From the IMG/VR virus record IMGVR_UViG_3300017760_000057: a DNA stretch of 28,768 nt, one strand, 5' to 3'. The notes beneath the pieces were generated by a model, which was not told the DNA's origin, did not search any database, and saw only the letters and a program-made list of their open reading frames with translations. Shown in pieces: positions 1 to 28,768 of this stretch (the stretch's first letter is position 1; the number at the start of each line of letters is the position of its first letter). The stretch is from a virus. A program made the translations under genes and the position numbers.

Positions 1-123
1 ATATCAGTAGTAGAAAATCCAGCAATAGAAGAAGATTTTATTGCACTTAAATCACAAGAGTTTAAACTTGCTGAGGTAGACAAAGAGAAACGCATTTTAA
101 TGGGTGCTTTACTAATTCCAAAT
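1..123. repeat. Left copy of the exact 123-bp terminal direct repeat (identical to 28646-28768)
   Basis: Base-by-base comparison of both window ends: atatcagtagtagaaaatcc...ttactaattccaaat is present at both. Confidence 0.95.
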
Positions 124-1846: not shown

Positions 1847-1852
1847 AAATGC

Positions 1853-1885
1853 AAAATTAATTTTTAACACTTATATATTAATATG
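1853..1885 (+). promoter_or_regulatory. Copy A of the repeated element AAATTA-N-TTATATATTA(A/G)TATG, ending in the start codon of 1883
   Basis: Exact TTATATATTAATATG at 1871-1885, with aaaattaa upstream. See the other copies at 4142, 19655, 21187 and 28561. Confidence 0.5.
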
Positions 1886-3497: not shown

Positions 3498-4037
3498 ATG
3501 GCTTGTGCAATAACAAAAGGTAGAGGGGTTGGATGTAAGACTGCCTTTGCTGGAATTAAAAATATTTACATCTTAGATTATAGTGCTGTTGTAGCTGCAT
3601 TGTCAGATTCAAGTGGAACTATTACTCTACCTACTGATAACTCTGCTGAGTTTTTTAAGTTTGAAGTAAAAGGTGGGCAGTCTTCGTTAGAAACAGTAGT
3701 AAACTCATCAAGAGAAAATGGTACTACTTTTTACGAAAGTACTTTAAATGTAACTTTTCAAGTTTTAGACGTAGCGACACAAGAGGAGATAAAACTTCTT
3801 AATAGAGGTAGAGCTCACTACGTTATAGAATTATATCCAAATGGTGCTGGAGTTACTAAGTATTTACTATTAGGTAGAGATAATGGTGCTGAGATTACTG
3901 GTGGTACAATCGTAACAGGTGCTGCTGCTGGAGATTTACAAGGGTTTACTTTAACTGCTGTAGCAACTGAGGTATTTCCTCCGTTCTTCTGTACTGTACC
4001 AGATGTAGCTTCTGCTACGCCAATTAGTCCAGCTTAG
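3498..4037 (+). CDS. Virion structural protein, possibly the major tail (tube) protein
   Basis: 179 aa. N-terminal C..GRGVGCKTAFAGIKNIYIL and ...YESTLNVTFQVLD...HYVIELYPNG...LLGRDNGAEITGG resemble tail-tube families by recall only. The gene has its own terminator downstream. Confidence 0.4.
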   Translation: MACAITKGRGVGCKTAFAGIKNIYILDYSAVVAALSDSSGTITLPTDNSAEFFKFEVKGGQSSLETVVNSSRENGTTFYESTLNVTFQVLDVATQEEIKLLNRGRAHYVIELYPNGAGVTKYLLLGRDNGAEITGGTIVTGAAAGDLQGFTLTAVATEVFPPFFCTVPDVASATPISPA

Positions 4038-4054
4038 GTTTAAATATATTTTTG

Positions 4055-4062
4055 TATATTTG
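4055..4062 (+). promoter_or_regulatory. TATATTTG, a match to the Bacteroidota -7 promoter element TAnnTTTG
   Basis: Exact TAnnTTTG match in an intergenic region, one of four intergenic TATATTTGT copies. It lies upstream of a terminator rather than a gene. Confidence 0.4.
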
Positions 4063-4099
4063 TCCTATGTCTGTTTTTGGTTGACGACATAAAGAAATT

Positions 4100-4130
4100 A
4101 GCCATCTCTTAAAGGGGGTGGCTTTTTTTA
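4100..4130 (+). terminator. Rho-independent terminator
   Basis: agccatc (4100-4106) pairs with ggtggct (4117-4123) with one G-U pair and is extendable. It is followed by T7. Confidence 0.75.
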
Positions 4131-4141
4131 TTAATACAATA

Positions 4142-4175
4142 CAAAATAAATTAGTTTTGTTTATATATTAGTATG
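4142..4175 (+). promoter_or_regulatory. Copy B of the repeated element, ending in the start codon of 4173
   Basis: caaaataaattagttttgtttatatattagtatg. The first 12 nt and the TTATATATTA core are identical to copy D (28561-28594). Confidence 0.5.
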
Positions 4176-4523
4176 AAGTTAATAGGAACAAATGGGAATA
4201 AGACTTTTAAGGTAATTCCTAGACAATTTATTAATGGTGCAATTACTGTAAATCTTACAAGTGAAAGCACAGGAACTAATGTAAGTATTACACCAACAGG
4301 CTCAACGGATGGAAACTATATGTCTTTTGTTGCTGCTTTTGGTACATTAACTGAGGGCGATTTTTATACCTTAGAAATAAAAAATGGTACTGCTGTTATA
4401 TACAAGGATAGAGTTTTTTGTACAGACCAGACAGTAAACCAAACAAATAATGATTACTATTCAGTAAATGATGGAGAATACACCACAGAGAATAGTTTTG
4501 ATAACGATTATATTATTTTATGA
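4173..4523 (+). CDS. Small beta-rich virion-associated protein, hypothetical
   Basis: 116-aa ORF starting at the repeated element, with an ATGA overlap onto the portal gene. Its C-terminus NDGEYTTENSFDNDYIIL resembles the shared C-terminal peptide. Confidence 0.5.
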   Translation: MKLIGTNGNKTFKVIPRQFINGAITVNLTSESTGTNVSITPTGSTDGNYMSFVAAFGTLTEGDFYTLEIKNGTAVIYKDRVFCTDQTVNQTNNDYYSVNDGEYTTENSFDNDYIIL

Positions 4524-9103: not shown

Positions 9104-9111
9104 TATATTTG
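9104..9111 (+). promoter_or_regulatory. TATATTTG (-7-type element) 31 nt upstream of ATG 9135
   Basis: The 12-mer TATATTTGTATA is shared with 16368, and both lie at the same 31-nt distance from the next ATG. Confidence 0.45.
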
Positions 9112-12560: not shown

Positions 12561-12568
12561 TATATTTG
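12561..12568 (+). promoter_or_regulatory. TATATTTG (-7-type element) lying between the ninG-like stop and its terminator
   Basis: Exact TAnnTTTG match in the same arrangement as at 4055. Confidence 0.4.
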
Positions 12569-12620
12569 TGTAAGATGAATTGTCTTTGTTTTTGTTTAAT
12601 AGCTAACCAGCTATAGAAAG

Positions 12621-12647
12621 AGCCACCTTAATTGGTGGTTTTTTTTG
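12621..12647 (+). terminator. Rho-independent terminator
   Basis: gccacc (12622-12627), loop ttaatt, ggtggt (12634-12639) including a G-U pair, then T7. Confidence 0.7.
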
Positions 12648-12708
12648 TTTACATTTTGTTTATTAAAAAATAATTTGTAGCTTTGGGTTAAACAATAAAA
12701 CAATTACA

Positions 12709-13482: not shown

Positions 13483-13785
13483 ATGAGTGCATTAATTAAT
13501 TTTAGTTTAAACGTAGCTAAGCTACCAAAAGAAAAGTTTATTGCTGGTAAAGATGGTAATGTTTATGTAAACCTTACTATGGCAGTAAATGATGAAACAA
13601 GATACGGAAACAATACAAGCGTATATGTTAATCAAACAAAAGAAGAAAGAGAAGCTAAGAAACAACGTCATTACTTAGGCAACGGAAAAGTTGTATGGAC
13701 TGATAACAATATTGTGTTAGCAGAAAGAGAACAAGAGGCTGAACAAGCACCTCAGCAAAAAGAGGTAGCTGATTTACCATTTTAA
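13483..13785 (+). CDS. SSB-like protein with an acidic C-terminal tip ending DLPF
   Basis: 100 aa. The C-terminal EQEAEQAPQQKEVADLPF mimics the bacterial SSB tail (D-I/L-P-F). It lies next to recombination genes. Confidence 0.45.
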   Translation: MSALINFSLNVAKLPKEKFIAGKDGNVYVNLTMAVNDETRYGNNTSVYVNQTKEEREAKKQRHYLGNGKVVWTDNNIVLAEREQEAEQAPQQKEVADLPF

Positions 13786-13797
13786 TTTAATTTACTA

Positions 13798-13826
13798 AAG
13801 AGGGGTTTTTTAACCCCTTTTTTTTA
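13798..13826 (+). terminator. Rho-independent terminator
   Basis: aggggtt (13801-13807), loop tttt, aacccct (13812-13818), then a T-run. Confidence 0.75.
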
Positions 13827-13858: not shown

Positions 13859-14713
13859 ATGACCGAAGAACAAACAACTCAAGAAATGCTAATGGAACTC
13901 ATAAAAGAGGAGTGTACTGTTGACACATCCGAAGTTATGGAGTACCCACCTACAGCATTGAGTTACGGAGAAAAGACAATTCAGACTAAAAAAGGAGATT
14001 TAACATTTCCTATACCTATTGGTACTTATGGAAATTTTTCATTTGTACAAGCACCACCTAAAACAAAGAAAACATTTTTTGCATCACTACTTGCATCAGT
14101 ATATTTAAGTGGTGGTAATAACTTTGGTGGTAACATTAGAGGACACAGAGATAATAAATGCCTTATACACTTTGATACAGAGCAAGGGCATTGGCATAGC
14201 CAGAGAGTATTTAAAAGAGTTTTAGATATGGCTAATATAAAAGAACTTGGGTGTTATCAGACTTATGCTCTTAGAACTATAAACTATAAGACTCGATTAC
14301 AATTTATAGAACACATACTGAAAGAGAACGGAGATAAAAATGGTTTAGTACTTATAGATGGTATAGCAGACTTAGTAAGTGATGTAAACAACTTAGAGGA
14401 AAGTAATCTATGTGTACAAAAGATTATGGAATGGTCTGCTAAATTTAATTGTCATATAGTAACTGTTATACACAGCAACTATGGTAGTGATAAACCTACA
14501 GGACATTTAGGCTCGTTCCTTGAAAAAAAGACAGAAACACAGATACAATTAGAAGCTAACACAGTAAACAAAGAATGGATAACAGTAAGCTGTAAAAGGT
14601 CAAGAGGTTACTCATTTGAAACATTTAGCTTTAGTATAAATGAATATGGTCTACCTTTTGTAGTAGGGGAGATATACGACCCATTAGAATATTATGTACC
14701 TAAAAAATTATGA
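13859..14713 (+). CDS. RecA-superfamily ATPase (AAA_25 / DnaB-C-terminal-like) with an atypical P-loop
   Basis: P-loop-like APPKTKKT, Walker B LVLIDGIADL and sensor-like IVTVIHSN. 284 aa. Confidence 0.5.
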   Translation: MTEEQTTQEMLMELIKEECTVDTSEVMEYPPTALSYGEKTIQTKKGDLTFPIPIGTYGNFSFVQAPPKTKKTFFASLLASVYLSGGNNFGGNIRGHRDNKCLIHFDTEQGHWHSQRVFKRVLDMANIKELGCYQTYALRTINYKTRLQFIEHILKENGDKNGLVLIDGIADLVSDVNNLEESNLCVQKIMEWSAKFNCHIVTVIHSNYGSDKPTGHLGSFLEKKTETQIQLEANTVNKEWITVSCKRSRGYSFETFSFSINEYGLPFVVGEIYDPLEYYVPKKL

Positions 14714-15204
14714 AATCATTAGTAGAAATTGCTTACGACAAACACAAAGACTGGATAAACATAGTTAAAAGCTTTGGATGTAATCCAAGTTTGGCTGAGG
14801 ACGTTGTTCAAAGTATGTATCTACAGTTGATATGCGATATTGATAAAGGATTAGATTTATGGTACGGAAATGAAATTAACAGTTACTATGTCTATAAAGT
14901 ATTGCGTGGAATTTATTTAAATACTCATAAGAAAGAGGCACGAATGATAAAAAGATATATAGAGGATATAGAGGGAGAGATAAGACAAATAGATGAATTA
15001 GGAATAGACGAGATAGAATATGCACAACGTAAAGACTTCATAGATAATATACTTAGTGAGATGTATTGGTATGATAGTAAAGTATTTACTTTAGTTGCTT
15101 CTGGTAAGTCTGTAGCCTCGCTAAGTAGAGATACTAAGATAAGTTATTATAGCTTATACAATACATACAGAAACGCTTTAAAACACATAAAAGACCAACT
15201 GTGA
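14710..15204 (+). CDS. ECF/sigma-70-family-like sigma factor
   Basis: Region-2-like LAEDVVQSMYLQL...YYVYKVLRGIYLNTHKKEAR and region-4 HTH-like KVFTLVASGKSVASLSRDTKISYYSLYNTYRNALKHIK. Confidence 0.55.
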   Translation: MKSLVEIAYDKHKDWINIVKSFGCNPSLAEDVVQSMYLQLICDIDKGLDLWYGNEINSYYVYKVLRGIYLNTHKKEARMIKRYIEDIEGEIRQIDELGIDEIEYAQRKDFIDNILSEMYWYDSKVFTLVASGKSVASLSRDTKISYYSLYNTYRNALKHIKDQL

Positions 15205-16367: not shown

Positions 16368-16375
16368 TATATTTG
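16368..16375 (+). promoter_or_regulatory. TATATTTG (-7-type element) 31 nt upstream of ATG 16399
   Basis: The 12-mer TATATTTGTATA is identical to that at 9104, and the spacing to the next ATG is identical. Confidence 0.45.
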
Positions 16376-17146: not shown

Positions 17147-17912
17147 AATAAAATTACTTGATGGTAAATACTACGACAGAGTAGAACTATTAGAACGTAT
17201 GGAAGATGATAGCTTTTACTATGGAGAACTAAACAAGTTAGCACTTAGTAGTAGTAGCCTTAAACAACTTCTGTCAAGTCCTAAGACATATAGCTTCAGC
17301 TTGAAGTATGGTAGTGGAGATAGTGCTGCACTTAGAGCTGGTGCTTTATTCCATTGGGCAATCCTTGAGCCAGAGAAGTTTGCATCACAGAAATTTGTTG
17401 AGGTACAAAGCAGAAACACAAAGAAGTTTAAGGAAGTACAAGAAGAATTTGGTACAGCTTTTACTGCTAAGGAACGAGGAGAAGCTGATAGGCTTGTAGA
17501 TGCGTTCTACAGAAACGAACACGCAAAAGAACTAATAACTAAAGCAGAGTTTGAGATACCAGCTATAGATAATGTATTAGACTTTCCATTTAGAGGTAAA
17601 GCAGATGTATTAGCTACAAATAGAATAGTAGACCTAAAGACTACAACAAACATAAAAGACTTTAGCTGGAGTGCTAATAAGTACGGATATGACGTACAAT
17701 GCTACTTATACTGTAACTTATTCAACAAAGAGTATAAAGACTTCTACTTCCTTGTATTAGATAAAGGCTCATTAGACATAGGTATATTTAATTGTTCTGA
17801 GGAGTTTTATTACAGAGGCGAACAGAAAGTAGAGAAAGCACTTGACTTATACAACAAGTTCTTTATAGAGGGTGCAGACTTAGATAACTATTGTTTAACA
17901 GGAGAATTATGA
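17136..17912 (+). CDS. PD-(D/E)XK exonuclease (RecE C-terminal / DUF3799-like)
   Basis: ALRAGALFHWAILEPEKF and GKADVLATNRIVDLKTT...YGYDVQCYLY match the exodeoxyribonuclease-VIII-like pattern. Confidence 0.75.
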   Translation: MKSKIKLLDGKYYDRVELLERMEDDSFYYGELNKLALSSSSLKQLLSSPKTYSFSLKYGSGDSAALRAGALFHWAILEPEKFASQKFVEVQSRNTKKFKEVQEEFGTAFTAKERGEADRLVDAFYRNEHAKELITKAEFEIPAIDNVLDFPFRGKADVLATNRIVDLKTTTNIKDFSWSANKYGYDVQCYLYCNLFNKEYKDFYFLVLDKGSLDIGIFNCSEEFYYRGEQKVEKALDLYNKFFIEGADLDNYCLTGEL

Positions 17913-18508
17913 TAGCAAGTTTATTAAGCAGAATAGGTATTGAAGTATGGAGAGATATTCCAGAATATGAGGGTAGATATAAAGTTAGTAATTTAGGTAA
18001 TGTTAAAAGTTTAAATTATAACAAAACAAAGAAATCTAAAATAATGACAAAAGGTCTTAACAGCAATGGTAGATATAGAGTTGGTTTATCTAAAAATGGG
18101 AAGCATAGAGGTAATTGCAAAATATCACAGCTTGTCGCTATGGCTTTTTTAAATCATAAGCCTTGCGGTTTGAAAATGGTAGTAGACCATAAAGATAATG
18201 ATAAGTTAAATGACAGACTTTACAATTTGCAAGTAATAACAAATAGACAAAATACTTCTAAAGACAAGAGAGGTGGAACTTCAAAATATACTGGAGTATA
18301 TATGGATAAAAAAAAATGGAGAGCAGCTATAAGAATAAATGGTAAAATTAAATATCTTGGTCTTTTTACAGATGAGAAAGAAGCTGCTAAAGCATATCAA
18401 AACGAATTAAAAAAAATAAATGAAACAAAAGAAACACACACAGATACAAAGAATACTAAGATTAGAAAATGTAGTAGCTCAGCTATATGTACAGATAGAA
18501 GCTATTAA
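17909..18508 (+). mobile_element. Free-standing HNH homing endonuclease (NUMOD4 + HNH_3 + AP2 DNA-binding domain)
   Basis: EVWRDIPEYEGRYKVSNLGNVKSL (NUMOD4), VDHKDNDKLNDRLYNLQVITNRQN (HNH) and YTGVYMDKKKWRAAIRINGKIKYLGLFTDEKEAAKAY (AP2). ATG 17909 forms an ATGA overlap, whereas the ORF track starts at TTG 17891. Confidence 0.85.
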
Positions 18509-19299: not shown

Positions 19300-19656
19300 A
19301 TGAAATTAAAAGCAATTAGAGATATAATATTACAAGTAAACGATATAGATATATTTGAGCAATCAAGACGTAGAGAGGTTATAGAGATGCGAAGTGTAGC
19401 AAACAAGTATATGAGAAAACAAAACAAAAAGATATTTAGAGATATAGTAAATGAATATAAAGAGAACGGATATAACACATCACATTGTTCTATAATACAT
19501 AGCTTAAACACATATAAGCAACATTGTAAATACAATAAAAACATAGAGCTAACATATAAACACCTATTAGGAGATACTAAACTATATGTGATGGAGAAGT
19601 TACCAAAGGCTACTGACCTACAGATAGAACTGATAGAAGAAATACTATTAGGCTAA
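19300..19656 (+). CDS. DnaA-domain-IV-like helix-turn-helix protein
   Basis: SRRREVIEMRSVANKYMRK...GYNTSHCSIIHSL parallels the DnaA C-terminal pattern (R..i..aRqiamYl...HstV.ha). Confidence 0.45.
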   Translation: MKLKAIRDIILQVNDIDIFEQSRRREVIEMRSVANKYMRKQNKKIFRDIVNEYKENGYNTSHCSIIHSLNTYKQHCKYNKNIELTYKHLLGDTKLYVMEKLPKATDLQIELIEEILLG

Positions 19657-19685
19657 AAAAAATTAAAATTGTTTATATATTAATG
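19655..19685 (+). promoter_or_regulatory. Copy E of the repeated element. Here its ATG opens only a 2-codon ORF, and the element sits 37 nt upstream of the small terminase ATG.
   Basis: aaaaaaaattaaaattgtttatatattaatg, with the exact TTATATATTA core. Confidence 0.45.
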
Positions 19686-19686
19686 A

Positions 19687-19714
19687 ATTGATTAATCAAT
19701 CTTTTTTCAATCTT
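19687..19714. promoter_or_regulatory. 14-bp perfect palindrome ATTGATTAATCAAT followed by 11-bp-phased TCAATCTT x2, just upstream of the small terminase gene
   Basis: Palindrome at 19687-19700. TCAATCTT occurs at 19696-19703 and 19707-19714. Confidence 0.5.
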
Positions 19715-19721
19715 TATAAAT

Positions 19722-19991
19722 ATGGATAAGAGAGCAAACAATGGAGGTGCAAGACAAGGTGCTGGTAGAAAGACAAAACAACAAGAGCAAAAGCTAATAG
19801 AAAGGTTAGATGCAATAATAGACAAAGACGAAGCATTATCTAAATTAGGAGAGTTAGTATCTAAAGGAGATATGAGAGCTGTACAGTTATATCTAAGTTA
19901 CCGATATGGTAAACCAAAAGAAAGCGTAGATATAAATTCAAGTGAAGGCTTAAACATCAACTTTAGAGATTTAATAAAGTTCGTTGATTAA
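19722..19991 (+). CDS. terS: Putative terminase small subunit
   Basis: 89 aa with N-terminal NNGGARQGAGRK, a motif common in small terminases. It lies immediately upstream of, and overlaps, the large terminase gene. Confidence 0.5.
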   Translation: MDKRANNGGARQGAGRKTKQQEQKLIERLDAIIDKDEALSKLGELVSKGDMRAVQLYLSYRYGKPKESVDINSSEGLNINFRDLIKFVD

Positions 19992-21189
19992 TATACATAA
20001 CAAATACAAACCTATACTTAGTGAAGATAGTAGGTACTTTATAGTTAGTGGGGGTAGAGGTAGTGGAAAGTCTTTTACTATCAATGCCCTCTTAGTTATG
20101 CTTACATACGAGCAAGGACACACAATCCTGTTCACAAGATATACATTAACCTCAGCATACATATCAATCATACCAGAGTTCATAGATAAGTTAGAACTCT
20201 TTAATTGTGTACACGACTTCCATATAACAAAAGACGAGATACTAAATAAAAAGACAGGAAGCAAGATAATCTTTAGAGGTATCAAGACATCAAGTGGCGA
20301 CCAGACTGCAAACCTTAAATCTCTGCAAGGTATTACAACTTGGGTAGTAGATGAAGCTGAGGAACTAACAGACGAACAGAAGTTTGATACTATAGACTTA
20401 TCAGTAAGACAACAAGGTAAACAAAACAGAGTTATCCTAATACTAAACCCAACTACCAAAGAACACTTTATATACACACGCTTCTTTGAAGATAGAGGTG
20501 TACAAGAGGGTAGCAATACAACAAAAGAAAACACTACCTACATACACACCACATATATAGACAACATAGACAACCTATCTAAAAGCTATATAGACCAAAT
20601 AGCACAGATGAGAGAAAGACGACCAGAGAAATACAAACAACAGATGTTAGGTGCTTGGATGTCTAAAGCTGAGGGTGTTATATTTAGCAACTGGACTATA
20701 GGAGAGTTTAAAAGAAGTAGCGTAAGTGTGTGGGGTCAAGATTATGGTTTTGCTGCTGACCCATCTACATTAGTTGAGGTAAACATAGACAAAGCTAATA
20801 AAACAATATATCTAAAAGAGTGCTTTTACTTGCCAAGACTTACAACATCACAAATAGCAGACTTAAACCAGAAACACGCAAGAGATGGTTTGATAGTAGC
20901 TGATAGTGCAGAGCCAAGACTAATAACAGAACTTAAAAGACATTGTAACGTAAAGCCAAGTATAAAAGGTCAAGGAAGTGTTACATACGGAATAAGCTTA
21001 TTACAAGACTATGACTTAGTGGTAAGTCCAGATAGTACAAACCTCATCAAAGAACTAAACAACTATCGCTGGTTAGAACGCAAAAGCAATACACCAATAG
21101 ACAAATACAATCACTTGATAGATGCAGTTAGATACGCTGTAGGCTATCAATTACAAAATCCTAATAGAGGTAAGTATATTGTTCACTAA
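19984..21189 (+). CDS. terL: Terminase large subunit (PBSX/XtmB-like family)
   Basis: Walker A YFIVSGGRGSGKSF and Walker B TTWVVDEAEEL, with a C-terminal nuclease-like region. TTG 19984 is the only possible start, because two in-frame TAA codons lie at 19972-19977. Confidence 0.9.
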   Translation: MINIHNKYKPILSEDSRYFIVSGGRGSGKSFTINALLVMLTYEQGHTILFTRYTLTSAYISIIPEFIDKLELFNCVHDFHITKDEILNKKTGSKIIFRGIKTSSGDQTANLKSLQGITTWVVDEAEELTDEQKFDTIDLSVRQQGKQNRVILILNPTTKEHFIYTRFFEDRGVQEGSNTTKENTTYIHTTYIDNIDNLSKSYIDQIAQMRERRPEKYKQQMLGAWMSKAEGVIFSNWTIGEFKRSSVSVWGQDYGFAADPSTLVEVNIDKANKTIYLKECFYLPRLTTSQIADLNQKHARDGLIVADSAEPRLITELKRHCNVKPSIKGQGSVTYGISLLQDYDLVVSPDSTNLIKELNNYRWLERKSNTPIDKYNHLIDAVRYAVGYQLQNPNRGKYIVH

Positions 21190-21220
21190 AATAATTTAAA
21201 AACGTTTATATATTAGTATG
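21187..21220 (+). promoter_or_regulatory. Copy C of the repeated element, ending in the start codon of 21218
   Basis: taaaataatttaaaaacgtttatatattagtatg. Confidence 0.5.
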
Positions 21221-21874
21221 AAAGTTAATCTAAGAATACCGACAACTTTAAATGATGTAACTCTAAAACAATACCAAGAGTTTGCAAAGTTAGAAAACAA
21301 GTTAGATGATACAAATGATTCTACAATACAACTAAAGATAGTAGAGATATTTTGTAATGTTCCAGAGATAGTAGTAAGGAATATGAAAGCAACAGATATT
21401 GCTGAGGTCTGTGAAATCATAAATACTATGTTTGATGCACAACACCAGCTTATAAATAGATTTACACTTAATGGTGTGGAGTATGGGTTTATACCAGAGT
21501 TAGATGATATGAGCTTTGGAGAGTATATGGACTTAGATACCTTTATAGGCGATAATGATAATTTACATAGAGCAGTAAATGTATTGTTCAGACCAATAGA
21601 ACACAAGAGAGGGCATAGATACAAGCTAAAAGACTACGACCCAGATACAAGCGAAGATGCTAAAGATTTTCCTTTAGATGCAGTATTAGGTGCAATAGTT
21701 TTTTTTTACAATTTAGGCAAGGACTTATCTCTGGTTATGATGAACTCTTTGGAGAAGAAGAACGAGATAGCTTTAGCTCAGCATCTGCTTTCTCATCCAA
21801 ATGGGGATGGTTTAACGCACTCTATGGAATCGCTAACGGAGATATTACAAAATTTGAAAATATCACTAAACTAA
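21218..21874 (+). CDS. Tail-assembly-chaperone-like protein, zero-frame product (218 aa)
   Basis: ORF beginning at the repeated element and containing a T9 run at 21699-21707. The chaperone call rests on the frameshift architecture and loose motif recall (FGEYMDLDTFIG...LHRAVNVLFRPI). Confidence 0.45.
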   Translation: MKVNLRIPTTLNDVTLKQYQEFAKLENKLDDTNDSTIQLKIVEIFCNVPEIVVRNMKATDIAEVCEIINTMFDAQHQLINRFTLNGVEYGFIPELDDMSFGEYMDLDTFIGDNDNLHRAVNVLFRPIEHKRGHRYKLKDYDPDTSEDAKDFPLDAVLGAIVFFYNLGKDLSLVMMNSLEKKNEIALAQHLLSHPNGDGLTHSMESLTEILQNLKISLN

Positions 21875-28557: not shown

Positions 28558-28560
28558 ATA

Positions 28561-28594
28561 CAAAATAAATTAAAAACTATTATATATTAATATG
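28561..28594 (+). promoter_or_regulatory. Copy D of the repeated element, ending in the start codon of the protease gene
   Basis: caaaataaattaaaaactattatatattaatatg. Confidence 0.5.
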
Positions 28595-28768
28595 CGAATA
28601 GTAGAACTAATATTAGACGAAGAACAAGAGATAGGGATAGAAGCTATATCAGTAGTAGAAAATCCAGCAATAGAAGAAGATTTTATTGCACTTAAATCAC
28701 AAGAGTTTAAACTTGCTGAGGTAGACAAAGAGAAACGCATTTTAATGGGTGCTTTACTAATTCCAAAT
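28592..28768 (+). CDS. 5' part of the XkdF-like protease gene, continuing at base 124 of the window via the repeat
   Basis: ATG 28592 gives MRIVELILDEEQEIGIEAISVVENPAIEEDF..., which runs in frame into the terminal repeat and on to the 1-1158 ORF. Confidence 0.6.
   Translation, partial: MRIVELILDEEQEIGIEAISVVENPAIEEDFIALKSQEFKLAEVDKEKRILMGALLIPN
28646..28768. repeat. Right copy of the exact 123-bp terminal direct repeat (identical to 1-123)
   Basis: Same comparison. The implied unit length is 28,645 bp. Confidence 0.95.

What the first reader, a model, noticed from the sequence alone, without database searches (positions are those of the whole stretch)
4142..4175. A roughly 34-bp element occurs five times, always intergenic, and four copies end exactly in a start codon
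The exact 10-mer TTATATATTA occurs at 1871, 4161, 19673, 21206 and 28580, and I found it nowhere inside a gene.
- In four copies it continues (A/G)TATG, where the ATG is the start codon of 1883 (scaffold-like), 4173, 21218 (chaperone-like) or 28592 (protease).
- The fifth copy sits 37 nt upstream of the small terminase gene.
- An AAATTA/AATTTA box lies 7 nt upstream in four copies, and copies B and D share 15 nt (atacaaaataaatta).
The element differs from the TAnnTTTG-type sites also present, and it marks the heads of every structural operon. If the AT-rich core acts as a -10/-7 element, transcription would start at or within a few nt of the AUG. That implies leaderless or near-leaderless late mRNAs. 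Alternatively, the element could be a translation-initiation enhancer in a host that lacks Shine-Dalgarno use.
Basis: seen in the sequence. Interest (0 to 1): 0.8.

Follow-up and report, generated by a model that had tools for sequence, protein, structure and literature searches.

The report
Phage late promoter fused to start codons
A 37-base signal repeated five times in this small marine phage genome is most likely the late promoter read by the phage's own sigma factor, placed so that transcription starts on the start codon itself and the main virion-gene messages have no leader.

Summary
TTATATATTA occurs five times, all on the + strand and all between genes (0.78 expected genome-wide, 0.07 for intergenic sequence). 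Four copies sit exactly 2 nt before an ATG start codon.

The element is larger than reported. All five copies align without gaps as C(A/T)AAAA, 14 nt, TTATATATTA, 2 nt, then a purine.

The window is a complete 28.6-kb circular phage genome of a Flavobacteriia-type host. More than 200 related contigs and the cultured Nonlabens phage P12024S keep the same architecture in front of the same genes:
- A C(A/T)AAA(A) box lies near -29, and (CG or TT)(A/T)TATA lies at -12 to -6.
- T is at -1 and the A of the ATG is at +1.
- P12024S has AAC-N16/17-CGTTAATA-N4-ATG six times.

Where the ATG is displaced, T(-1)/purine(+1) stays in place. This happens at small terminase (leaders of about 22-37 nt) and at some orthologues of gene 21218 (12 nt). 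So the element is a promoter, not a ribosome signal.

The genome encodes a divergent ECF-type sigma factor (14710-15204), the likely reader.

Verdict: an ECF-like late promoter that yields leaderless or near-leaderless late mRNAs. This is a new variant of known kinds. No transcription start site has been measured.

The parts
1849..1885 (+). Late promoter copy 1. Box ATGCAAAA at 1849-1856, core TTATATATTA at 1871-1880, and the ATG of gene 1883-2506 (scaffold-like) at +1.
   Evidence: orthologous sites in relatives
4139..4175 (+). Late promoter copy 2 (the reported one). Box ATACAAAA at 4139-4146, core at 4161-4170, and the ATG of gene 4173-4523, which heads the portal operon. It is preceded by the terminator at 4100-4123.
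   Evidence: orthologues; P12024S gp05-portal has the same layout
19651..19685 (+). Late promoter copy 3. Box GGCTAAAA at 19651-19658 and core at 19673-19682. The predicted +1 is G19685, followed by a 37-nt leader to the small-terminase ATG at 19722.
21184..21220 (+). Late promoter copy 4. Box CACTAAAA at 21184-21191 (overlaps the end of the large terminase gene), core at 21206-21215, and the ATG of gene 21218-21874 at +1.
   Evidence: orthologues include variants with a 12-nt leader
28558..28594 (+). Late promoter copy 5. Box ATACAAAA at 28558-28565, core at 28580-28589, and the ATG of the prohead-protease-like gene (28592, wrapping to 1158; 403 aa) at +1.
14710..15204 (+). Phage ECF-type (group 4) sigma factor, 164 aa, with sigma2 and sigma4 domains joined by a disordered linker. 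It is the proposed reader of the five promoters.
19685..19721 (+). Predicted 5' leader of the small-terminase mRNA. It contains the palindrome ATTGATTAATCAAT (19687-19700).
12678..12685 (+). Host-type sigmaA -7 box TAGCTTTG preceded by TTTG. It is one of the host-type boxes (also 4047-4062, 9104-9111, 12561-12568, 16368-16375). These mark the other promoter class, which presumably drives the early region that contains the sigma gene.
   Evidence: consensus and geometry from PMC6847099

Best explanation
The five copies are the late promoters of this phage.

Anatomy. Each copy is a two-part promoter of about 37 bp. The upstream box is C(A/T)AAAA at about -31 to -26. After a fixed spacing comes the downstream box, TTATATATTA in this genome. 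The conserved part of that box across the lineage is (CG or TT)(A/T)TATA at -12 to -6.

Proposed mechanism:
1. Host RNA polymerase with its own sigmaA transcribes the early region from host-type promoters (inferred).
2. The early region yields the phage's ECF-type sigma factor, gene 14710-15204. That the gene encodes such a sigma is shown; its timing is inferred.
3. The phage sigma redirects host core polymerase to the five late promoters (inferred).
4. Transcription starts at the conserved T(-1)/purine(+1) step (inferred from geometry and conservation).
5. In four of the five promoters that purine is the A of the start codon, so the first cistron of each late operon is made as a leaderless or nearly leaderless mRNA (0-5 nt). 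Ribosomes start on it without any upstream signal, in a host group that does not use Shine-Dalgarno pairing anyway.
6. The fifth promoter uses the same start point but has a 37-nt leader before small terminase.
For: Position and conservation:
- The 10-mer is enriched and confined to the + strand between genes. All five copies align without gaps over about 37 nt, including a second box.
- In relatives found through the protease (over 595 contigs, 80 kept, 75-98% protease identity), the sites upstream of the orthologues of 1883, 4173, 21218, small terminase and the protease all keep the element. This holds although the flanking non-coding sequence and the proteins (down to 35-50% identity) have diverged.
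- Among 716 unique ORF-start contexts, (A/T)TATA begins at -10 in 191, against about 8 at other offsets.
- Columns that were not used to select the sites are still conserved: T at -1 (92%), AAA at -29 to -27 (85-94%), C/T at -12 and G/T at -11.
- Cultured Nonlabens phage P12024S (portal 36% identical) has CGTTA(A/C)TA-N4-ATG six times, against 0.02 expected. Each ATG is an annotated gene start, and each site is preceded by AAC at 16-17 nt. AAC and CGT boxes are what I recall as the ECF promoter hallmarks. [quoted passage not shown]

Separable from the start codon:
- Small-terminase promoters carry leaders of about 22-37 nt, and several 21218 orthologues carry a 12-nt leader. They still keep T(-1)/purine(+1) at the same offset from TATA.

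The ATGs are real start codons:
- Protein N-termini are conserved from residue 2, and 73% of 227 unique sites have no other in-frame start within 20 codons.
- All coupled starts seen by protein alignment are ATG, whereas 6 of 38 genes in the window use GTG or TTG.

- ORF 14710-15204 is an ECF-type sigma. The family profile hits SigR, SigH, SigW and SigL in the PDB.
- 20 of 53 family members match Pfam Sigma70_r2 and 8 match r4_2.
- The AlphaFold model (pLDDT 76) retrieves ECF sigma factors as its best matches (top 15 all ECF sigmas).
- P12024S gp33 belongs to the same family (hhalign probability 98%).
- The motif subtype tracks the sigma clade. Phages whose sigma is at least 65% identical to this one have TTT-ATATA; those at 40-50% have ACG-(T/A)TATA.

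A separate promoter class and host type:
- Host-type boxes TATATTTG occur in other intergenic regions.
- Only 2 of 38 genes have any Shine-Dalgarno-like 4-mer.
- The element has no RNA structure beyond shuffled controls.
Against: - No 5' end has been mapped, so the start point is inferred from geometry.
- Numbering by the M. tuberculosis sigmaL structures (C-14, G-13, T-12) would put the start 2 nt later in the CG-type relatives, inside the ATG. Only the conserved N-termini force it back to +1 or earlier.
- In this window the boxes are not the canonical ECF AAC/CGT. Only copy 4 has CGT, and it is shifted by 3 nt. The spacing between the C of the upstream box and the core differs by 1 nt from the CG-type relatives.
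- The window's sigma matches no Pfam model on its own.
- The link between sigma and motif rests on co-occurrence and parallel divergence, which shared ancestry alone could produce.
- Leaderless mRNAs are a minority in the two flavobacteria studied: 5.5% in F. psychrophilum, and 87% of F. johnsoniae leaders exceed 10 nt.
- The related contigs share descent, so the counts are not independent events.
Confidence: 0.7

Rival explanations
1. The element is a promoter that starts at or near the AUG, but it is read by a host holoenzyme rather than the phage sigma. This could be a host ECF sigma, or host sigmaA retargeted by a phage activator. The phage sigma would then serve other targets.
For: - Sigma dependence is untested.
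- Flavobacteria carry several ECF sigmas whose promoters have a CGT -10 box (PMC9723704).
- Part of the core, TATATTAG, matches the host TAnnTTTG at 5 of 6 specified positions in two copies.
- Phage systems that retarget the host sigma exist, for example P23-45 gp39 (PMC7403470).
Against: - The resemblance to TAnnTTTG is lost in relatives (for example TATACATA, TATAGTTA). True host-type boxes TATATTTG occur elsewhere in the same genome.
- A sigma of the same family is kept from this phage to P12024S, alongside the motif.
- The motif subtype changes in step with the sigma clade.
Confidence: 0.15
2. Transcription starts further upstream, for example about 20 nt before the ATG, driven by the C(A/T)AAAA/AAATTA region or by read-through. 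The TTATATATTA(A/G)T stretch would then be a conserved short 5' leader that promotes translation initiation in a host without Shine-Dalgarno pairing.
For: - The ATG sits at a fixed distance in four of five copies.
- A is frequent at -3 (70%), -6 and -8, and A at -3 favours initiation in F. johnsoniae (abstract of PMC6847099, as I recall it; the passages retrieved do not cover this point).
- The region is unstructured.
Against: - The same element sits about 22-37 nt upstream of small terminase and 12 nt upstream of several 21218 orthologues, too far away to act at the start codon.
- T(-1)/purine(+1) is kept even without an ATG.
- Internal cistrons of the same operons lack the element and have ordinary A-rich upstream regions.
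- The fixed spacing of two boxes and the AAC-N16/17-CGT form in P12024S are promoter features.
Confidence: 0.07
3. The repeats are not expression signals. They could be RNA-processing sites that cut polycistronic late RNA just before the AUG, or recombination cassettes that shuffle gene modules.
For: - The copies lie at module boundaries.
- Two copies share 16 identical nt beyond the core.
- Gene content between copies differs among relatives.
Against: - There is no RNA structure beyond shuffled controls (z about 0) and no Rfam family.
- Strict orientation, a fixed offset to start codons and a two-box layout with fixed spacing are not expected for recombination sites.
- A terminator lies directly upstream of copy 2, so a new start is needed there.
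Confidence: 0.04

Closest known systems
Phage-encoded sigma factors of phiEco32 (gp36) and Salmonella phage 7-11 (gp47) with their middle/late promoters
   Same: A small phage sigma redirects host core RNA polymerase to a phage-specific motif in front of late genes. The 7-11 promoters are bipartite (GTAAtg-N16-aCTA), and starts lie 6-9 bp from the element (PMC8948821).
   Different: - The host phylum, the motif sequences and the sigma are different, with no detectable sequence relation tested here.
- The passages I retrieved from that paper say nothing about a fixed fusion of those promoters to start codons, and the word 'leaderless' does not occur in it.
- Sigma dependence is demonstrated for those phages but only inferred here.
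Leaderless transcripts of Thermus phages (YS40, Lalka27a; P23-45 from my memory)
   Same: Most phage transcripts begin with the A or G of the initiator codon, and late promoters carry a phage-specific -10 motif (bioRxiv 10.64898/2026.04.20.719267).
   Different: - From my own knowledge, leaderless mRNAs are common in Thermus hosts; that preprint attributes the late-promoter specificity to a phage-encoded transcription factor modifying host polymerase, not to a phage sigma.
- Here the host group is Flavobacteriia, where leaderless mRNAs are a minority, and a phage sigma is present.
- Starts were mapped experimentally for the Thermus phages, but not here.
Bacterial ECF (group 4) sigma promoters, AAC -35 / CGT -10
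   Same: - There are two boxes at fixed spacing and a two-domain sigma2-sigma4 factor.
- The P12024S relatives carry AAC-N16/17-CGT.
- A CGT -10 box is known in F. psychrophilum, and a CG-T step precedes the -10 element of M. tuberculosis sigmaL.
   Different: - In this window the boxes have drifted to C(A/T)AAAA and TTATATATTA.
- No anti-sigma partner was looked for.
- The function is viral late-gene timing, not envelope stress.
Bacteroidetes sigmaA promoters (-33 TTTG / -7 TAnnTTTG)
   Same: They are AT-rich with a TA-containing proximal box. The same genome carries true copies (TATATTTG) at other intergenic sites.
   Different: The late element lacks the near-invariant TTTG at -8 to -5. Its conserved core is TATA at -9 to -6, and it has a different upstream box.
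T4 late promoters (TATAAATA, read by gp55 with gp33 and the sliding clamp); comparison from my own knowledge
   Same: An AT-rich -10-type late motif is read by a small phage sigma-like protein.
   Different: T4 late promoters have no upstream box, and gp55 lacks a sigma4 domain. Here there is a conserved upstream box and a sigma4-like domain.

Membership tests
ECF (group 4) sigma-dependent promoter | A cognate two-domain (sigma2 + sigma4) sigma factor is available. | tested here: met
   ORF 14710-15204. The family profile hits ECF sigmas in the PDB, family members hit Pfam r2 and r4_2, and the best fold matches are ECF sigmas (top 15 all ECF).
ECF (group 4) sigma-dependent promoter | Two conserved boxes lie at a fixed spacing. 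| tested here: met
   All five copies have exactly 14 nt between C(A/T)AAAA and the 10-mer. In relatives, AAA at -29 to -27 and TATA at -9 to -6 are conserved.
ECF (group 4) sigma-dependent promoter | AAC in the -35 box and CGT in the -10 box. | tested here: inconclusive
   Not met in this window: the boxes are ACAAAA/CTAAAA and TTATATATTA, and CGT occurs only in copy 4, 3 nt upstream. Met in P12024S (AAC-N16/17-CGT, six sites). CG(T/A) at -12 to -10 is met in the CG-type relatives.
ECF (group 4) sigma-dependent promoter | Transcription from the site depends on that sigma. | not testable with these tools
   This needs in vitro transcription or genetics. Only co-occurrence and parallel divergence were seen.
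Leaderless mRNA | The primary 5' end lies at, or within a few nt of, the start codon. | not testable with these tools
   Inferred from three things: the -10-type box at -12 to -6, T(-1)/purine(+1), and N-termini conserved from residue 2. Contig ends in a metagenome scan gave no information.
Leaderless mRNA | The start codon is AUG (a 5'-terminal AUG is what ribosomes recognise; established knowledge, Brock et al. 2008, listed in the references seen). | tested here: met
   All motif-coupled starts found by protein alignment are ATG, whereas 6 of 38 genes in the window use GTG or TTG.
Bacteroidetes sigmaA promoter | -7 box TAnnTTTG with T-8, T-7, T-6 and G-5 nearly invariant, 4-5 nt before the start. 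| tested here: not met
   The best register, TATATTA(G/A), matches 4-5 of 6 specified positions, and the TTAG part is not conserved in relatives. Geometry is from PMC6847099.
T4-type late promoter | A single -10-type element with no upstream box, read by a gp55-like factor without sigma4. | tested here: not met
   The upstream box is conserved, and the sigma has a C-terminal four-helix domain with r4_2 matches in the family.

The most novel reading that the evidence does not exclude
A widespread lineage of marine Flavobacteriia phages, from the cultured P12024S to this abundant uncultured group, has fused its own ECF-type sigma promoter to the start codons of its virion operons. The fusion forms one conserved cassette of about 37 bp, so the first late proteins of each operon are made from leaderless mRNAs. 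This would be a dedicated viral expression channel in a phylum where translation initiation without Shine-Dalgarno pairing is still poorly understood. It may give late messages an advantage over host messages. The cassette may also serve as a portable module boundary.
Probability: 0.55. Interest if true: 0.72.

Novelty: new variant of a known kind. Interest (0 to 1): 0.62.

Why it matters
- It would be the first described late-transcription scheme for this abundant group of marine flavobacterial phages, as far as the searchable literature shows. The scheme is a phage ECF-type sigma plus a defined promoter.
- It gives a clean natural set of leaderless mRNAs in Bacteroidetes, where ribosomes ignore Shine-Dalgarno sequences and leaderless messages are rare. 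How these ribosomes start on a 5'-terminal AUG therefore becomes testable.
- P12024S has the same architecture and a cultured host, so the prediction can be checked directly.
- The sigma-promoter pair could serve as an orthogonal expression tool for Flavobacteriia.
- The motif helps to annotate true start codons and operon heads in hundreds of uncultured viral contigs.

Tried and rejected
Searches that led nowhere:
- Megablast of 25 kb against cultured phages found no match.
- Pfam on the sigma ORF alone gave nothing. A single-sequence and a close-family profile search of the PDB gave nothing useful. Only the wider family profile worked.
- tblastn of the sigma against cultured phages found no match. 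The relation to P12024S gp33 needed a profile comparison.
- RNA folding of the five sites gave z-scores near 0. Rfam and tRNA scans were empty.
- The generic sigma70 promoter scan was no better than shuffles.
- The paper on P23-45 transcription is not held.

Attempt to use contig ends as a proxy for 5' ends:
- One viral contig (L012) begins 1 nt after the A of the protease ATG. One case among a few hundred contig ends is within chance by a rough estimate.
- A metagenome-wide pattern scan returned mostly DNA contigs and chance matches, with no obvious pile-up.

Readings rejected:
- Host sigmaA -7 box: the TTTG is absent and the resemblance is not conserved.
- T4-type single-element late promoter: an upstream box is present.
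- Structured RNA element.
- The mini-ORF ATG AAT TGA after copy 3: not conserved.

Full report
**1. The observation**

TTATATATTA occurs five times in the window (1871, 4161, 19673, 21206, 28580), always on the + strand. Dinucleotide shuffles of the whole window give 0.78 copies on average, and none of 100 reach five. AT-rich spacers could inflate this, so I also simulated the 2622 nt of intergenic sequence alone. That gave a mean of 0.067, with 0 of 5000 simulations reaching five. All copies lie between ORFs.

Four copies are followed by (A/G)T and then the ATG that opens ORFs 1883, 4173, 21218 and 28592. One-mismatch variants are not enriched, so the five copies form a sharply defined set.

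When the copies are lined up on the position after the two trailing bases, all five align without a gap over about 37 nt. They share a second box, nnC(A/T)AAAA, exactly 14 nt upstream of the 10-mer.

The shared 15-mer links the copies at 4161 and 28580, not the second and fourth.

**2. What the window is**

The first 123 nt repeat at the end of the window, so it is a complete circular assembly of 28,645 bp. The protease-like gene that starts at 28592 runs on to 1158. All genes are on one strand.

PHROG matches identify the following:
- large terminase, portal, tail fibre and tail proteins;
- a virion-structural-like protein and a prohead protease;
- amidase and holin;
- NinG, an exonuclease and an HNH endonuclease.

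The nearest cultured phages are Nonlabens (Persicivirga) phages P12024S and P12024L, with 36% portal identity. Three features fit a Flavobacteriia host:
- only 2 of 38 genes have any Shine-Dalgarno-like 4-mer, and A is the commonest base at -3;
- textbook Bacteroidetes -7 boxes (TATATTTG, often preceded by TTTG) sit in other spacers, at 4047/4055, 9104, 12561, 12678 and 16368;
- the genome is AT-rich throughout.

The genome therefore carries two distinct classes of promoter-like sites. The five copies studied here all lie in the virion half, from 19673 through the origin to 4161.

**3. Comparative evidence**

The protease retrieved over 595 related viral contigs, and 80 were kept (75-98% protease identity). 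The upstream regions of the orthologues of all five genes keep the element, even where the proteins are only 35-50% identical and the neighbouring non-coding sequence has changed.

When sites are anchored on the ATG, the invariant part is TATA at -9 to -6. It is preceded by A/T at -10 and by either TT (this clade) or CG (a more distant clade) at -12/-11.

Among 716 unique ORF-start contexts, (A/T)TATA begins at -10 in 191 cases, against about 8 at other offsets. Side peaks at -12 and -8 come from the TATATA repeat.

In sites selected only on that core, other columns are still conserved:
- T at -1 (92%);
- AAA at -29 to -27 (85-94%);
- C at -31 or -30.

The AAATTA positions carry only 0.14-0.26 bits.

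P12024S shows the same design in an older form. CGTTA(A/C)TA-N4-ATG occurs six times against 0.02 expected. Each ATG is an annotated gene start, including the gene ahead of portal, as in the window. Each site is preceded by AAC at 16-17 nt.

**4. Promoter, not ribosome signal**

The element can be separated from the start codon:
- Every small-terminase orthologue has it about 22-37 nt upstream.
- A group of 21218 orthologues has an extra 12 nt (AAGCAAAGTAAT-like) between it and the ATG.
- Two orthologues of 4173 have the ATG 3 nt further on.

In the small-terminase and 12-nt 21218 cases, the base 10 nt after the start of (A/T)TATA is still a purine preceded by T. A pyrimidine at -1 and a purine at +1 is the usual preference of bacterial RNA polymerase at start sites (established knowledge). 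Translation does not explain it.

Internal cistrons of the same operons lack the element. The region folds no better than shuffled sequence, and no Rfam family matches.

**5. Where transcription would start**

With the A of the ATG as +1, the proximal box occupies -12 to -6 and the distal box about -31 to -26. This is the canonical register of a sigma70-family promoter.

Published phage-sigma promoters start 6-9 bp from their element (PMC8948821). Scaffolds with spacers of 4-7 nt all worked for an ECF holoenzyme (PMC6372665).

The sigmaL numbering (C-14, G-13, T-12) would place the start 2 nt later in the CG-type relatives, so the geometry alone leaves an uncertainty of about 2 nt. The proteins settle the upper bound:
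- N-termini are conserved from residue 2 (MRIVELILD..., MKVNLRIPT..., MK(L/I)IGT...);
- 73% of 227 unique sites have no alternative in-frame start within 20 codons.

The AUG must therefore be in the mRNA. The start lies between about -5 and +1, which makes the message leaderless or nearly so. All coupled starts are ATG, while other genes in the window use GTG or TTG. This fits the requirement of leaderless translation for a 5'-terminal AUG.

**6. The likely reader**

ORF 14710-15204 (164 aa) had only a weak PHROG sigma hit and no Pfam hit of its own. The wider evidence is stronger:
- Some homologues are labelled sigma-24 family by JGI.
- A profile of 53 family representatives hits SigR region 2, SigH, SigW and SigL in the PDB.
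- 20 of the 53 match Sigma70_r2 and 8 match r4_2.
- The AlphaFold model has two helical domains and a disordered linker, with pLDDT 76.
- The model retrieves ECF sigma factors as its best matches, including all of the top 15.
- P12024S gp33, annotated with Sigma-70 region 2, belongs to the same family (hhalign probability 98%).

The gene lies in the early half of the genome, downstream of host-type boxes.

The motif subtype follows the sigma clade. Phages with a sigma at least 65% identical to this one have TTT-ATATA. Those at 40-50% have ACG-(T/A)TATA, and a further clade has TATTATATA. This fits co-evolution, but shared descent would also produce it.

**7. Rivals**

- A host holoenzyme could read the sites. 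The partial match to TAnnTTTG is not conserved, and true host boxes exist elsewhere in the genome, so I rate this at 0.15.
- A translation-enhancing short leader is contradicted by the displaced-ATG cases (0.07).
- Processing or recombination sites lack any supporting feature (0.04).

**8. Comparison with what is known**

Phage sigma factors with private late promoters are known from phiEco32 and 7-11. Phage transcriptomes that are mostly leaderless are known from Thermus phages. ECF-type promoters with a CGT box are known in flavobacteria.

The new part is the combination and its host range. An ECF-like promoter is fused at single-base precision to the start codons of virion operons. The fusion is conserved across a large, mostly uncultured lineage of Flavobacteriia phages. 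In this host group only 5.5% of F. psychrophilum mRNAs are leaderless, and 87% of F. johnsoniae leaders exceed 10 nt. Full-text searches found no description of it.

I therefore file it as a new variant of known kinds, not a new category.

**9. Limits**

No transcript ends were available. A look at contig ends and one metagenome-wide scan gave nothing usable. The related contigs share ancestry, so the large counts show conservation under divergence, not independent origin. Sigma dependence, timing and the exact start base remain inferences.

Noticed in passing
window 4047-4130: Candidate small RNA. Host-type -7 boxes TATTTTTG/TATATTTG lie right after the stop of gene 3498-4037. A body of about 40 nt follows, then the intrinsic terminator 4100-4123 with a T-run, and then late promoter copy 2. 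The same layout (promoter, 55-65 nt, terminator, late promoter) is kept in both close and distant relatives, although the body sequence differs. A G/U-rich stretch is shared. There is no Rfam hit.
   Followed up: partly
window 12561-12648: A second host-type box (TATATTTG, 12561-12568) is followed about 45 nt later by a strong terminator (12613-12648). This lies at the junction of the late and early regions. It may be another short transcript or an attenuator.
   Followed up: no
window 19687-19700: The predicted small-terminase leader contains the perfect palindrome ATTGATTAATCAAT. Most relatives keep a palindrome at this place with changes on both arms (CTTGAATATTCAAG, TTGATTAATCAA); a few have a less regular sequence (GTTCAGTTAACTAA). 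It could be an RNA hairpin or a protein operator that controls terminase expression.
   Followed up: partly
window 1-123 and 28646-28768: An exact 123-nt terminal direct repeat. The window is a circularly closed (or terminally redundant) complete genome of 28,645 bp, and the protease gene spans the junction.
   Followed up: yes
window 19683-19691: The 10-mer of copy 3 is followed directly by ATG AAT TGA, a two-codon mini-ORF. The ATG is not conserved in relatives (ATTG, AGTA and AATA occur instead), and the predicted start is its G, so it is probably accidental.
   Followed up: partly
L012, positions 1-12: One viral contig (IMGVR_UViG_3300037891_000092) begins with TGCGAATTGTAG, 1 nt after the A of the protease start codon. 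This is where a transcript-derived assembly would begin. A single case is within chance.
   Followed up: partly
window 28592-1158 and 1883-2506: The protease-like protein and the product of 1883 match adjacent parts of the same family (phrog_24921, profile positions 55-206 and 209-310). This suggests a protease-scaffold protein that is split here into two genes, each with its own late promoter.
   Followed up: no
window 13800-13825: A terminator-like hairpin GGGGTTTTTTAACCCC plus a T-run lies between gene 13483-13785 and the AAA_25 ATPase gene that heads the operon containing the sigma gene. The consensus scan missed it.
   Followed up: no
L207, L221, L227, L233 (about 11.6-16.1 kb into each locus): Phages whose sigma is only 44-48% identical to the CG-clade sigma have a third motif subtype, AAAACTT-N-TATTATATAnnT-ATG. 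It keeps TATA at -9 to -6 and T at -1. The motif subtype tracks the sigma clade.
   Followed up: partly
window 17891-18508: An HNH endonuclease gene lies about 1.2 kb upstream of the small and large terminase genes, an arrangement often linked to HNH-assisted packaging.
   Followed up: no
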